DNA from: Octopus sinensis
Taxonomy: Eukaryota
Direction: 5' to 3'
Assembly (NCBI RefSeq): GCF_006345805.1
Contig: NC_043011.1
Span: 28,222,464-28,286,463 of the forward strand
Length of the DNA: 64,000 nucleotides
Shown here: positions 48,317 to 59,028 of the stretch, piece after piece
Layout: the number at the start of each line of letters is the position of its first letter
How positions within the stretch are numbered: the first letter of the stretch is position 1
Position numbers: made by a program

Positions 48317-48777
48317 ATATATTATTATATATATGAAAAAAGGTTTGAAAATGCAATTTAAACGATGTTTATTACTTAACCGGTTCACTCTTTGGTAAAA
48401 GATTGTCAAAAGACTTCCTGTCAGGTGTCCCAGATGAACCAACTTCACGGCAGGAGGGGCAGATGAGGGCAGCTGCATCGAAACTCTCTCATGCCCAAAT
48501 GGCAGTTGCTAGAAAGCTTTCGTGAAGTGAAACCAAGTAGCAACACCAAATGGCGGTGCCCCAGCATGGCCACAGCTCATAAGCTGAAACTCGAACCAAT
48601 CAATCAATCAATCATATACATATATACAATATTATATATACCTATATACATATATTATATATATATATATACTATATATATATACATATATACATATATT
48701 ACATATATACATATATATATATCATATATACATATATATATACATATATACTATATATATATACATAATACATATAC

Positions 48778-48831
<54 letters not shown>

Positions 48832-49305
48832 GTTAGTTGTGGGGTATCGCGCGAGTGGATTATATATGAAAAAAGGTTTGAAAATGCAATTTAAACGATG
48901 TTTATTTACTTAACCGGTTTCACTCTTTGGTAAAAGATTGTCAAAAGACTTCCTGTCAGGTGTCCAGATGAACCACTTCACGGCAGGAGGGGCAGATGAG
49001 GGCAGCTGCATCGAACTCTCTCATGCACCAAATGGCAGTTGCTAGAAAGCTTTCGTGAAGTGAAACCAAGTAGCAACACCAAATGGCGGTGCCCCAGCAT
49101 GGCCACAGCTCATAAGCTGAAACTCGAACCAATCAATCAATCAATCATATACATATATACAATATATATATATACATATATACATATATATATACATATA
49201 TACATATATATATATACATATATACATATATATACATATATACATATATATATATACATATATACATATATATATCATATATACATATATATATACATAA
49301 TTACT

Positions 49306-49364
<59 letters not shown>

Positions 49365-55300: not shown

Positions 55301-57699
55301 TTTACATAATTGTCACATTGAATATTATGAATTCAAAAATGTTTTTTTATACATAATTGTCACATTACATGTATAAACATAGTATAAAAAAGTCAATAGT
55401 ATGATGAGAATTTGGAAAAATTGGCAGAAAAGAATAAAATAAATATATTATTGGAAATTTGGTTGCGTTAATTATTGGTTGTCGCCAATTGTCACATTAC
55501 ATGTATATATATACAGTCTTTGGTAGAAAGGACATGTTAAAGACATAAGGAAGTGTAATAGTTTGGTGAGAAAGCTTGTAATATTGACCTCACAGCATAT
55601 CGTGCGGGCGGGCACATGCGCGCATCGGCACGCATAGGACACACTAGCGGGCATTGACCGCACACATACGTGGCACGCACACGCATGCATTATATATATG
55701 TAGGTTATGTGTATGTGTGTGGGTGTTGTTGTGTGTGTGTGTGAGTGTGCACGTTGTGTGTGTGCGCGTGTGTATATGTATGTGTGTGTGTGTGTGCGTG
55801 TGTGTATGTGTGTGTGTGTGCGCGCGTTGTGTGTGTGTGTGTACACGTGTGTATATATGTGTATGTGTGTGTGCACTGTGTGCGTGTGTGTGTGTATGTG
55901 TGTGTGTGTGTGTGAGCATTGTGTACGTGTGTATGTATTTACATGTGTATTTGTTTTTATACATATATATATGTGTGTGTGCTGTGTGTGTATATGCATG
56001 GTATGTGTGTATATGCATGGTATGTGTGTATATGCATGGTATGTGTGTATATGTGAGTACATTGTTTGTGTGTGTGTGCGGTATGTAGAGATATATTGAG
56101 TGTGTACGCTATAGGTTTGTATTTTGTGTGTGTGGATGTGGTGTGGAATTTTATATATATATGTGTGTTATGTGTGTGAAAAAATATATGTATGTGCATG
56201 TATGTATGTATGTATATGTATATATATATATATATATGTGTATGTAATATATGTGTGTGTGTATGTGTGTGTGTATATATATTTTCATATATATGTGTGT
56301 ATAAACATGTGCATTATTTGCATGCGCATTGTGTATATGTATATTGTATGTATGTGTACTGTATGTATGTGTACAATTAAGTGTATATATGTGTGTATGT
56401 GTGCATTGTATATATGTATATTGTAAGTGTGCTATATATACATGAATACATGTATATACGTTGCGTGTATATATATGTATGCATTGTGTATGTATGCTAT
56501 GTGTGTGTGTGTCTATATTATTATATGTATGCGTACGTGTATGTGTATGCATTGTATGTATGTATATTGTGTGTATATGTGGTATATCTATGTATGTGTA
56601 TGTAAACACTATTTATATGTATATATGTATATATGTATATGCATTGTCTATATATATATATATTATATGTATGTATTGCGTATGTATATGCATACATATA
56701 TTGTGTATGTGTATTATATACATGCTGTGTATGTGTATGTATGTGTATATATATGCTAGGTGTATTTGTGTGATATTTATATTATGTATATATGTGTGCG
56801 TGTGTTGTGTGGGTGTGGTGTGTATGTGCTATATATGTGTGTATATTATATATAAATACATGTTATATTTGTGTGCTGTGTGTATATATTATATATGTGG
56901 GTGCGTTGTGTGTGTGTGGTGTCTGTGTGTGGTGTTGTGTGTATGTGGTGTGTGTGGTATACTATGTGTGTGTGTGTATTGTTGTTGTGTTGTGGGTGTA
57001 TATAGGTGTGTGACAAACAGGACGCTGTCTGACCAGCAGGCACACGGACACATCTATTCACACCCGCATACTCACCTCCCAATAACCCCAAAATCACTGA
57101 TGCTTGAAGGGGAAGTATAAACCAAACTGGGTACATATCTTTTTTTCTCTCAATCCAACTTTTCTGCTAAAACAAACAGGTCAGTAAAAAAACAAATTCT
57201 CGCCTTCGATTCAAAATATTCTGAGATGTCTAAAATATCCATTTTAATTTTCTCTGTCAATATTACAAGCTTTCTCACCAAACTATTACACTTCCTTATG
57301 TCTTTAACATGTCCTTTCTACCAAAGACTGTATATATATACATGTAATGTGACAATTGGCGACAACCAATAATTAACGCAACCAAAATTTCCAATAATAT
57401 ATTTATTTTATTCTTCTGCCAATTTTTCCAAATATTCTCATCATACTATTGAACTTTTTATACTATGTTATACATGTAATGTGACAATTATGTATAAAAA
57501 AACATTTTTGAATTCATAATATTCAATGTGACAATTATGTAAAAAACTTTTTTGAACCCATAATATTCAAAGTTTCTTTTGACAATCTTTTACCAAAGAG
57601 TGAAACCGGTTAAGTAAATAAAACATCGTTTAAATTGCATTTTCAAACCTTTTTTCATATATAATCCCACTCGCGCGATACCCCACAACTCAACTTTTT

Positions 57700-57731
<32 letters not shown>

Positions 57732-59028
57732 ATATATATATATGTATATGTATATGTTATATATATATGTATATATGTATATATATATGTATATATGTAT
57801 ATATATATATGTATATATGTATATATGTATATATGTATATATATATATGTATATATGTATATATATATGTATATATGTATATATATATATTGTATATAGG
57901 TATGATTGATGATTGATTGGTTCGAGTTTCAGCTTATGAGCTGTGGCCATGCTGGGGCACCGCCATTTGGTGTTGCTACTTGGTTTCACTTCACGAAAGC
58001 TTTCTAGCAACTGCCATTTGGTGCATGAGAGAGTTCGATGCAGCTGCCCTCATCTGCCCCTCCTGCCGTGAAGTTGGTTCATCTGGGACACCTGACAGGA
58101 AGTGATCCAGCTTCATTTTAAAGACATCTGCATCCACCCCATGCAGGTCTCTCAGTTCTTCGGGAGGATATTGAAGAGCTGTGGGTCTCGGAAGCCCAGG
58201 CTATCACAGAATCTTGTCCTACATCTTGATGGCAAGTTTGGAGTCCTAGGCACCACGCAGTGGCGCCCAGTTCTGGCATTTGCGTAACTCTCGATGCCAA
58301 AGTTTGGGACACGTCCTCCAGGATCTTCCAGATGTATTATGGCATATCTTTCCCGCCTACGCTCCAGGGAATATAGTTTTAATCTCTTGAGTCTTTCCCA
58401 GTAGCTTACATTCTGCATAGAGGCTATCTTCTTCGTGTAGCTACGTTGGATCGCCTCGAGCTCTGTGATCAACTTGACACTGGATGGTGACCATAACTGA
58501 GAGCAGTAGTCAAAGTGGCTTAGGATAAGTGTCCTCCAGAGGACCATCATGGTTTCTTGTTCTTTTGTTCTAAAGGTTCTGAGGATCCATCTGGCCAGTC
58601 GTCTACATTTCATTGCCAATTTAGCAACATGTACACGAAAGGTCGCGTCATCACTCATGTAAATACCTAGGTCACGCACTTATTGTGCCTCTGGGATTGC
58701 TATTCCTCTGGGTCCAGTGTATTCATTGGGTATTGCATTTAGTTTTGCATGCTGATAGTATAGAGCTTGAAACTTTTCAGCATTGAACTGCATGCTATTC
58801 TTTTCAGCCCACTTGTATATTTTGTCCAGCTCACATTGCAGGGTTCTGTATTGCCTGTGAAACTTTTGTATCATCTGCATAACTTGTGATCGTGGCTCTC
58901 TCCGTGGCTGAGGGCATGTCTGAGAGGGCCATTATGAACAGTAGTGGTCCCAGAACAGTGCCCTGCGGAACACCGCTCACTATTTGCGTGTTAATGGAAA
59001 TATATATATATATAGTATATATATATAT

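What the first reader, a model, noticed from the sequence alone, without database searches (positions are those of the whole stretch)
48330..58103. Penelope-like element whose 2.5-kb inverted repeat has copied its own genomic flank
Seen: a full minus-strand element (49361-55588) is fused at 55588/55589 to an inverted copy of its 3' 2.1 kb. The symmetry (48948-51460 vs 55589-58103) does not stop at the element end: it continues through the (TA)-rich target and ~190 bp into the neighbouring CR1-group LINE. That LINE runs on to 58981 only on the right. Established: PLEs form tandem and inverted pLTR structures. Inference: non-element flank on both arms implies either fold-back synthesis across the target or local re-insertion of a read-through transcript, a route by which PLEs could duplicate and mobilise adjacent DNA.
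Basis: partly seen in the sequence, partly recalled or inferred. Interest (0 to 1): 0.85.

Follow-up and report, generated by a model that had tools for sequence, protein, structure and literature searches.

The report
Retrotransposon inverted repeat extended into its flank
A young Penelope-like retrotransposon sits in its usual head-to-head arrangement next to the tail of a LINE, and a 533-base block of element end, microsatellite and LINE tail from one side has been copied twice to the other side, an odd but single local rearrangement.

Summary
48948-51460 and 55589-58103 are inverted copies (2463 of 2555 aligned columns identical). The symmetry runs past the element end, through a ~215-bp imperfect TA tract, and 193 bp into a LINE that continues only on the right (to 58992).

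The element is a Penelope-like element (PLE): RVT_1 followed by a C-terminal GIY-YIG domain. Full copy, upstream pseudo-LTR (pLTR) and abutting inverted 5'-truncated copy form the published standard PLE architecture (PMC8557442).

New here:
- The copied flank is a 533-bp block: last 122 bp of the PLE, the TA tract, and the LINE's last ~193 bp.
- It occurs three times: once on the right, continuous with the LINE (the source), and twice in tandem on the left.
- The left copies are joined by one novel junction with 1 nt of microhomology.
- Unique sequence shows 0 substitutions in 881 columns and only homopolymer-type indels, so the copies are identical within consensus noise.

Independent LINE insertions are unlikely. 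The direction of copying was right to left.

The polymerase is not shown. I favour host replication or repair template switching between the inverted arms (0.4). PLE reverse transcription of read-out RNA is close behind (0.3), and mis-assembly is at 0.2. No mobilisation elsewhere is shown. PLE transduction of host DNA is already in print.

The parts
48256..48327 (.). TA(a): TA-rich tract at the left edge of the whole complex. Unique flank lies to its left (<=48255).
   Evidence: The array homology 48256-48948 versus 48770-49482 starts here.
48328..48413 (-). Leftmost PLE 3' fragment, positions 36-122 counted from the PLE 3' end. It lacks the terminal 35 nt, which is a candidate PLE 'tail'.
   Evidence: Alignment (row unit1_48300). 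BLAST 49396-49482 versus 48328-48413 gives 98.9%.
48414..48613 (+). LINE 3' end, left copy 1: last ~32 codons, 3' UTR and (CAAT)n.
   Evidence: 57910-58103 versus 48606-48413 gives 99.0% over 195. tblastn.
48614..48826 (.). TA(b): imperfect TA/ATAC tract, copy 1.
48827..48948 (-). Last 122 bp of the PLE, including the 35-nt tail. It ends at the novel junction 48948|48949.
   Evidence: 49361-49482 versus 48828-48948 gives 97.6%. Sequence.
48949..49146 (+). LINE 3' end, left copy 2.
   Evidence: 57910-58103 versus 49139-48948 gives 99.0% over 194. There are 0 substitutions in 194 columns.
49147..49359 (.). TA(c): imperfect TA/ATAC tract, copy 2.
   Evidence: 224 columns against the right tract, with 1 substitution and 9 indel events.
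49360..55130 (-). Full PLE unit of ~5.77 kb. From the 3' end: 3' pLTR region 49360-49803, a 3' region rich in (CA)n/(TA)n at 50040-51460, GIY-YIG at 51511-51972, RT at 52301-53455, an N-terminal region up to ~55078, and the 5' start at ~55130.
   Evidence: Pfam. tblastn to 3 of 3 homologues covers aa 23/38 to the end, with three frame changes. Sequence.
55131..55143 (.). (TA)6 linker between the upstream partial copy and the full copy.
55144..55588 (-). Upstream pLTR: a 5'-truncated tandem copy of the last ~445 bp of the PLE.
55589..57700 (+). Inverted 5'-truncated PLE copy (3' 2.1 kb), head-to-head with the upstream pLTR.
57701..57903 (.). TA(d): imperfect TA/ATAC tract in the source copy, lying between the PLE 3' end and the LINE 3' end.
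57904..58992 (-). 5'-truncated APE-type LINE, matching aa 692-1027 of a 1033-aa homologue. Its last 193 bp (57910-58102) is the piece copied to the left.
59000..59300 (.). TA(e): TA/TG-rich tract at the LINE's truncated 5' end. It is only 85% like TA(d).

Best explanation
Step 1 (anatomy shown; the insertion history is inferred). A 5'-truncated APE-type LINE lies with its 3' end next to a TA-rich microsatellite.

Step 2 (architecture shown, process inferred from the literature). A PLE integrated in that tract in its standard compound form:
- a full minus-strand copy;
- an upstream pLTR made by a template jump;
- an inverted 5'-truncated 2.1-kb copy.
Both 3' ends face outwards. The right 3' end came to lie tail-to-tail with the LINE.

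Step 3 (copying and its direction shown, enzyme inferred). A DNA strand being synthesised in the left arm switched template to the identical inverted right arm. It then returned to the left end at position 122 from the PLE's 3' end, using 1 nt of microhomology. This duplicated a 533-bp block and lengthened the inverted repeat from ~2.1 to ~2.5 kb.

I commit to a host replication or repair event as the most likely version. That means either quasi-palindrome-type template switching, or synthesis-dependent repair of a break in the fragile TA tract or pLTR, templated by the other arm.

Step 4 (inferred). Unequal exchange between the new 533-bp direct repeats added the second left unit.

No function is implied. 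This is a structural by-product of a young inverted repeat.
For: - The block occurs three times and is continuous with the rest of the LINE only on the right. That gives the direction of copying.
- The fine structure of the ~215-bp imperfect microsatellite is the same in all three copies: 521 of 542, 518 of 544 and 524 of 545 columns identical. The adjacent tract TA(e) is only 85% similar.
- There is only one kind of novel junction, identical at 48413|48414 and 48948|48949, with 1 nt of shared sequence. A template switch with a single return point, later duplicated, would leave this.
- No RNA hallmarks mark the block ends:
  - no A-run at the junction;
  - the only AATAAA or ATTAAA hexamer between 57256 and 58200 in the PLE-sense (+) strand is at 57617, inside the PLE;
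  - no hammerhead was found.
- The arms are 2.1 kb long, effectively identical and only 4.1 kb apart, next to long TA tracts. From recalled general knowledge, not read here, this setting is recombinogenic.
- The rest of the architecture is the published norm for PLEs (PMC8557442 passages). Only the flank block needs a special event.
Against: - This account needs at least two events, the copy and then the tandem duplication. It needs a third if the missing 35 nt of the leftmost fragment is a deletion. All must fall within a time that left 0 substitutions in 881 unique columns.
- The array sits exactly where PLE first-strand synthesis would begin. It has that polarity, and it starts with a tail-less PLE 3' end on (TA)n, which looks like a genuine reverse-transcription junction.
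- Both block boundaries recur twice, as defined RNA ends would.
- No reads, second allele or other family copies could be examined, so reality and mechanism are both unverified.
- The template-switch literature I lean on is recalled, not read here.
Confidence: 0.4

Rival explanations
1. The PLE reverse transcriptase made the left array. In this model the terminal pLTR of the inverted right copy fires read-out transcripts. These start about 122 nt before the PLE end and run through the TA tract into the antisense LINE. The PLE enzyme nicked the TA tract at the left end and started on such RNA. It then jumped end-to-end between copies of the ~533-nt RNA, producing the two units. The last cDNA annealed to the resident left PLE. 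A variant is that the whole complex, including the 1.07-kb LINE piece, is one compound insertion of read-through RNA from a donor locus elsewhere.
For: - The purified PLE protein cleaves and extends both strands. It normally starts reverse transcription internally, and gives a minor product primed at the RNA's true 3' end. Multi-copy read-through RNA is its proposed template (PMC11167929 main text).
- Read-through transcripts carrying flanks, followed by template jumps, were already proposed for PLEs (PMC3846280 Discussion passage).
- The array has the polarity and position of first-strand synthesis. Its leftmost piece lacks exactly 35 nt, matching the optional 30-40-bp 'tail'.
- The same two boundaries are used twice each.
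- The ORF starts ~60 nt after the unit's 5' start, so the promoter must lie in the pLTR.
- An A-rich TAAAAA box lies 36 nt upstream of the breakpoint in the PLE sense.
- One event fits zero divergence.
Against: - Nothing in the sequence marks an RNA 3' end at 58103. There is no poly(A) signal or A-run.
- No hammerhead exists to cut RNA at position 122.
- The TATA-like box is weak and would predict a start some bases upstream of the breakpoint.
- The model needs homology-based resolution onto the resident copy.
- The donor-elsewhere variant needs different 3' ends for the two arms.
- There is no transcript data.
Confidence: 0.3
2. This is an assembly artefact. The left LINE pieces and the 533-bp tandem come from chimeric or mis-corrected noisy long reads, or from haplotypes joined in series, in a region with identical inverted arms and TA tracts.
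For: - The copies differ almost only by 1-2-bp indels in short homopolymers and microsatellites. There are 13 indel events, 12 of them in repeat context, and 0 substitutions in 881 unique columns.
- The PLE ORF changes frame three times. The consensus is therefore poorly polished here.
- PLE tandem and inverted structures are known to trouble assemblies (PMC8557442 passage).
Against: - It is not a simple fold-back. The arms are separated by 4.1 kb of non-palindromic element sequence, and the sequence to the right of 55588|55589 is not the reverse complement of the sequence to its left.
- The novel junction lies inside the PLE end, at position 122. It is not at a repeat boundary where an overlap error would fall.
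- It appears twice with independent noise around it.
- The head-to-head layout matches real, published PLE architecture.
Confidence: 0.2
3. There were independent LINE insertions. The left 193-bp pieces are a separate, heavily 5'-truncated insertion of the same young LINE family next to the PLE's left end. It has a ~122-bp-plus target-site duplication and was later duplicated, so the symmetry is coincidental.
For: - The product [PLE 1-122][LINE 3' end][tail][PLE 1-...] has the form of a 5'-truncated LINE insertion, with a microhomology 5' junction and a long target duplication.
- LINE and PLE both appear young.
Against: - The ~215-bp imperfect tract between the LINE's (CAAT)n end and the PLE end has the same order of variant repeats and nearly the same length (213, 213 and 203 bp) on both sides.
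- Two independent insertions would have to land at the same base next to the PLE end, in mirror orientation, with the same tract.
- Related elements in the window end in short 8-mer repeats, not a TA tract. The TA tract is therefore not the LINE's own tail.
Confidence: 0.05

Closest known systems
Canonical compound insertion of EN+ Penelope-like elements: full copy, upstream pLTR and abutting inverted 5'-truncated copy (Craig et al. 2021, PMC8557442, Fig. 2 legend and text passages)
   Same: - RT followed by a C-terminal GIY-YIG domain.
- A partial tandem copy forming a pLTR.
- An inverted 5'-truncated copy directly at the upstream pLTR.
- 3' ends in (TA)n.
- An optional ~35-nt end piece.
- A Cx4Cx2C linker before GIY-YIG, as in the Neptune, Nematis and Naiad types.
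   Different: - The inverted repeat continues ~400 bp beyond the element into foreign DNA.
- The element end plus flank is tandemly repeated on one side.
- No hammerhead motif was found, although the paper says canonical HHRs are universal in C-terminal-EN clades.
- The unit is long (5.77 kb), with a 2.1-kb microsatellite-rich 3' region.
Host DNA carried by PLEs (Arkhipova et al. 2013, PMC3846280; summarised in PMC6431247)
   Same: Non-element DNA is duplicated in association with PLE terminal repeats. That paper proposes read-through transcripts with flanks plus template jumps.
   Different: - There, a host gene lies between pLTRs at a new locus with a target-site duplication.
- Here, the foreign DNA lies outside the 3' end, stays at the same locus, and no new locus is known.
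L1 3' transduction (Goodier 2000 and Pickeral 2000, seen only as citations in PMC6431247)
   Same: The flank directly downstream of the element's 3' end is duplicated together with the element's 3' part.
   Different: - No poly(A) signal or tail marks the end of the copied flank.
- The copy lies 9 kb away, in inverted orientation, within the same compound element.
- No offspring at another locus has been seen.
Template-switch extension of inverted repeats or quasi-palindromes, and break repair templated by an ectopic repeat (recalled from general knowledge; no paper read here)
   Same: One arm's flank reappears inverted at the other arm. There is a single novel junction with minimal microhomology, and the source flank is intact.
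   Different: The copied stretch is hundreds of bases long, not tens. It was followed by a tandem duplication. The arms were supplied by a retrotransposon whose own enzyme could equally have done the copying.

Membership tests
Penelope-like element, EN+ with C-terminal endonuclease | PLE-type reverse transcriptase | tested here: met
   Pfam RVT_1, E 2.8e-08, for 52301-53455(-). 287 relatives at E<=0.001 among 1619 candidates, the best at 73% identity, most with RVT_1 plus GIY-YIG architecture.
Penelope-like element, EN+ with C-terminal endonuclease | GIY-YIG endonuclease downstream of the RT | tested here: met
   Pfam GIY-YIG, E 5.5e-05, for 51511-51972(-), which is 3' of the RT on the minus strand. 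tblastn order confirmed.
Penelope-like element, EN+ with C-terminal endonuclease | pLTR made by a partial tandem copy | tested here: met
   49347-49803 versus 55132-55588, 97.6% over 461. (TA)6 linker and 5' start seen.
Penelope-like element, EN+ with C-terminal endonuclease | Inverted 5'-truncated copy adjacent to the upstream pLTR | tested here: met
   55589-57700(+) abuts 55588. The feature is as described in PMC8557442.
Penelope-like element, EN+ with C-terminal endonuclease | Optional 30-40-bp 'tail' at one end | tested here: inconclusive
   The terminal 35 nt is present in 4 of 5 aligned 3' ends and absent from the leftmost. A slippage deletion into the TA tract cannot be excluded.
Penelope-like element, EN+ with C-terminal endonuclease | Hammerhead ribozyme motif in the pLTR | tested here: not met
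   - Rfam: 80 hits at E<=1 in 47500-59500. None is a hammerhead and all are below gathering score.
- Rfam: 4 hits at E<=10 in 54400-55600, none a hammerhead.
- Core regex: 2 matches, both outside the PLE.
- Consensus indels could hide a motif.
Neptune/Nematis-type PLE | CX2-5CxxC linker between RT and EN | tested here: met
   A Cx4Cx2C motif can be read in the translation of 51511-51972(-). The motif definition comes from PMC8557442 passages. No phylogeny was made, so the clade is not assigned.
CR1-group LINE | APE endonuclease plus RT ORF | tested here: inconclusive
   Only aa 692-1027 of a 1033-aa homologue are present here. Homologues carry PF03372/PF14529 plus PF00078.
CR1-group LINE | 3' end in short tandem repeats, not poly(A) | tested here: met
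   (CAAT)3-4 at 57904-57920, 48600-48613 and 49130-49146.
CR1-group LINE | Placement in the CR1 clade by RT phylogeny | not tested
   No reference LINE set was available. The closest named relatives are unclassified proteins of Argonauta hians.
Retrotransposon 3' transduction | Copied flank ends at a transcript 3'-end signal or tail | tested here: not met
   No AATAAA or ATTAAA lies between the PLE end and 58103. The only one in 57256-58200 is at 57617. There is no A-run at the junction.
Retrotransposon 3' transduction | Offspring copy at another locus with its own target duplication | not testable with these tools
   No genome of this organism was on hand. There is no other copy in the 64-kb window.
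Template-switch extension of an inverted repeat | Flank of one arm copied inverted to the other arm, with one novel microhomology junction and the source intact | tested here: met
   This is also compatible with an RT as the polymerase.

The most novel reading that the evidence does not exclude
The left array may be a direct footprint of the PLE enzyme copying read-out RNA made by the outward-facing terminal pLTR of its own inverted partner. Under this reading:
- a ~533-nt RNA runs from a pLTR start site near position 122, through the TA tract, into the antisense LINE;
- it was reverse-transcribed at the nearby left end;
- it was concatenated by end-to-end template jumps.
That would be the first sequence-level example of PLE 3' flank transduction. 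It would also be a natural record of the both-strand priming and 3'-end priming seen in vitro.
Probability: 0.25. Interest if true: 0.65.

Novelty: new variant of a known kind. Interest (0 to 1): 0.35.

Why it matters
How PLEs build their tandem and inverted structures is still open. PMC8557442 and PMC11167929 both say so. A compound insertion whose arms share foreign flank, with base-precise junctions, constrains the possible models. If the RT did it, it shows priming downstream of the normal start site and end-to-end jumps on read-out RNA in vivo, and gives PLEs an L1-like route to duplicate neighbouring DNA. If host repair did it, it is a clean example of how a young TE-made inverted repeat grows and destabilises its surroundings. 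Either way it is one locus with no evidence of spread, so the present value is that of a lead.

Tried and rejected
- **Hammerhead cleavage at position 122 as the cause of the recurrent breakpoint.** Rejected. No hammerhead was found by Rfam or by a core regex.
- **Nested insertion of one PLE into another.** Rejected. The missing 5' part of the plus-strand copy is not found to the left of 49360, and there is no other copy of the PLE interior in the window.
- **Simple fold-back read.** Rejected. The 4.1-kb centre is not palindromic, and the sequence to the right of 55588|55589 is not the reverse complement of the sequence to its left.
- **TA tract as the LINE's own tail.** Not supported. Related elements in the window end in 8-mer repeats directly after the conserved box.
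- **Palindrome at the head-to-head junction, as reported for rotifer PLEs (PMC3846280).** None seen.
- **RNA-editing-type A>G changes between the left copies and the source.** No A>G or T>C change among the 10 substitutions between the arms; the U1 rows were not typed.
- **TRF.** It cannot report the 533-bp period because its longest period is 500. It lists only the four TA tracts.
- **Target-site duplication or empty site.** Not discernible, because both edges lie in TA tracts. The flanks have no second copy in the window apart from a SINE-like repeat.
- **Host genes as a check on consensus quality.** 10 of the 45 ORFs of >=130 aa were scanned. These were the longer ones outside the finding. 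There was no hit above the cut-off, only one weak Avian_gp85 hit below it.
- **Literature.**
  - The searches (58 papers, 15 listed; 19 papers, 15 listed; 9 papers, 7 listed) returned no title or abstract describing a PLE inverted repeat that includes foreign flank.
  - I read passages only of PMC8557442, PMC3846280, PMC6431247 and PMC13282606, and the main text of PMC11167929.
  - Supplements were closed and may hold relevant examples, such as the PLE family structures in PMC8557442 file S1.
- **Unchecked.**
  - Any other copy of this PLE or LINE family.
  - Reads and alleles.
  - The closed collections metagenome contigs and viral contigs.
  - Genome contigs, which holds only bacteria and archaea, was not used.

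
Full report
**1. What is in the sequence**

A self-comparison of 46000-61000 gives one dominant inverted match. 48948-51460 pairs with 58103-55589 at 96.5% over 2552 columns, with 13 mismatches and 58 gap openings. My global alignment has 2463 of 2555 identical columns, 10 substitutions and 82 gap columns. The repeat finder shows the same arms in pieces.

A direct repeat, 49347-49803 versus 55132-55588 (97.6% over 461), is the pseudo-LTR (pLTR).

**2. Identity of the parts**

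The Penelope-like element (PLE):
- On the minus strand, 52301-53455 matches Pfam RVT_1 and 51511-51972 matches GIY-YIG. This is a PLE with a C-terminal endonuclease.
- Three of three homologues tested by tblastn align from residue 23-38 to their ends. There are three frame changes, near 53499-53514, 52310-52337 and 51912-51939.
- A Cx4Cx2C motif precedes the GIY-YIG domain (translation). This is the linker that PMC8557442 ascribes to the Neptune, Nematis and Naiad types and tentatively links to (TA)n targeting.
- The closest named relatives are bivalve proteins at ~50% identity. The best unnamed relative is at 73%.
- No hammerhead was found.

The LINE:
- The right-hand neighbour is a LINE on the minus strand. 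58992 down to 58009 matches aa 692-1027 of a 1033-aa protein at 68-92% across the segments.
- Its relatives carry APE-type endonuclease and RVT_1 domains. The best named ones are from the cephalopod Argonauta hians at 59-61%.
- The LINE ends in (CAAT)3-4 at about 57904-57920.
- The 193 bp shared by both arms is therefore the LINE's own 3' end: the last ~32 codons, the 3' UTR and the short-repeat tail. It lies tail-to-tail with the PLE across a ~205-215-bp imperfect TA/ATAC tract.

**3. What is ordinary**

PMC8557442 (text and Fig. 2 legend) describes the typical PLE insertion as follows:
- a full copy preceded by a 5'-truncated tandem copy (the pLTR);
- a 30-40-bp tail at one end;
- a bias for (TA)n in some clades.

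PMC11167929 (main text) shows that a purified PLE protein cleaves and extends both DNA strands. It also starts reverse transcription inside the RNA rather than at its end.

The layout 49360-55130 (full copy), 55144-55588 (pLTR) and 55589-57700 (inverted copy) has both 3' ends in TA tracts. This is the standard product and needs no new mechanism. The head-to-head junction 55588|55589 is blunt.

**4. What is not ordinary**

The left side is a tandem array. 48256-48948 matches 48770-49482 at 93.4% over 723 columns. Reading the plus strand, the order is:
1. unique flank;
2. TA(a), 48256-48327;
3. PLE positions 36-122 from its 3' end, 48328-48413;
4. LINE 3' end, 48414-48613;
5. TA(b), 48614-48826;
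6. PLE positions 1-122, 48827-48948;
7. LINE 3' end, 48949-49146;
8. TA(c), 49147-49359;
9. the PLE.

The junction between PLE position 122 and the LINE is the same string at 48413|48414 and 48948|48949. It shares one base with both parents.

The 533-bp block is made of the PLE's last 122 bp, the TA tract and the LINE's last 193 bp. It therefore exists three times. The three copies align over their whole length, with these identical-column counts:
- 521 of 542 (U2 versus U3, 1 substitution);
- 518 of 544 (U1 versus U3);
- 524 of 545 (U1 versus U2).

The imperfect microsatellite keeps the same order of variant repeats in all three. The neighbouring TA tract at 59007-59202 is only 85% like TA(d), with 21 mismatches.

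This argues strongly against two independent LINE insertions and for block copying. Only the right copy continues into the rest of the LINE, so the right copy is the source.

**5. Age and data quality**

In unique sequence (193 bp of LINE plus 680 bp of PLE end) the arms show 0 substitutions in 881 columns. They show 13 indel events, 12 of them in short homopolymer or repeat context. The other substitutions lie in (CA)n/(TA)n runs.

This pattern is what incompletely polished long-read consensus looks like. That reading is my inference. So the copies are identical within noise, and the events are either very recent or not real.

A simple fold-back artefact is excluded by the 4.1-kb non-palindromic centre. 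A novel junction inside the PLE end, seen twice with independent noise, is also not what an overlap error at a repeat boundary gives. I leave 0.2 for an artefact.

**6. Mechanism**

Any account must explain four things: one novel junction type, used twice; the right-to-left direction; the duplicated 122 bp; and a leftmost PLE end that lacks exactly 35 nt.

(a) Host template switch (0.4)
- A strand growing outward in the left arm pairs with the identical inverted right arm. It copies PLE end, TA tract and 193 bp of LINE, then returns at position 122 by 1 nt of microhomology.
- Unequal exchange then adds a unit.
- For: a single junction type, no RNA-end signals, and the fragile TA tracts and perfect arms.
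- Against: two to three events with zero divergence.

(b) PLE reverse transcription of read-out or read-through RNA, with end-to-end jumps (0.3 including a donor-elsewhere variant)
- For:
  - the enzymology in PMC11167929;
  - the read-through proposal in PMC3846280;
  - the polarity and position of the array;
  - the tail-less start;
  - recurrence of both boundaries;
  - an ORF starting ~60 nt into the unit, so that the promoter must be in the pLTR;
  - a weak A-rich box 36 nt upstream of the breakpoint.
- Against: no evidence for those RNA ends.

(c) Artefact (0.2).

(d) Independent LINE insertion with a long target duplication (0.05).

**7. Comparison and novelty**

The element is a member of a known kind. 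The extension of its inverted repeat into foreign flank, together with a tandemly repeated end-plus-flank block, is a variant I did not find described. I checked the listings and the passages I read. Supplements were closed.

The broader idea that PLEs can duplicate host DNA is in print (PMC3846280; PMC6431247). Recently active PLEs and CR1 LINEs are reported in an octopus genome (PMC13282606, Table 1 passage), so young copies of both kinds side by side are plausible in a cephalopod.

**8. Verdict**

- Copying of the flank is well supported. The enzyme and any 'mobilisation' are not.
- Interest is 0.35. It is a good lead for PLE mechanism if reads and other family copies bear it out, and otherwise a one-off rearrangement.

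Noticed in passing
window 49360-55588 and 55589-57700: No hammerhead ribozyme motif was found in a PLE with a C-terminal endonuclease. PMC8557442 states that canonical HHRs are universal in such clades. Consensus indels might hide one.
   Followed up: partly
window 50040-51460 (mirrored at 55589-57016): The PLE carries a ~1.4-kb (CA)n/(TA)n-rich stretch between its stop codon (~51514) and its pLTR. This makes a 2.1-kb 3' region and an unusually long 5.77-kb unit. Rfam's mir-297/466/3149-type hits here are low-complexity matches below gathering score.
   Followed up: partly
window 20530-20986 and 39114-39569: Two copies (84% over 466) of a SINE-like element. Its 3' end shares a ~24-nt box with the LINE's 3' UTR and ends in 8-mer repeats. 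It may be a SINE that borrows this LINE group's tail.
   Followed up: partly
window 47649-47892 and at least 12 other sites (for example 4296-4521, 9904-10150, 24734-24967): An abundant ~235-bp dispersed repeat at 77-88% identity lies just left of the complex. It is probably a SINE or MITE.
   Followed up: no
window 29899-31440 (+) and 42788-43234 (-): An older, frame-shifted LINE of the same broad group (36-57% to the same homologues). Also a remnant of a different PLE family, covering N-terminal residues 24-164 at 40% identity.
   Followed up: no
window 53857-53954: A 48-50-bp tandem duplication (98% identical) inside the PLE's N-terminal region.
   Followed up: no
window 49484-49580 (also 55270-55366 and 57478-57570): Two ~45-bp direct sub-repeats in the pLTR begin 2 bp from the position-122 breakpoint. 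Each has an A-rich TATA-like box, so they could be promoter elements.
   Followed up: partly
window 48948-51460 versus 55589-58103, and the ORFs 51514-53717: Differences between the repeat copies are almost all 1-2-bp homopolymer or microsatellite indels, and both the PLE and LINE ORFs change frame. The consensus looks under-polished in repeats, so apparent frameshifts may not be real.
   Followed up: partly
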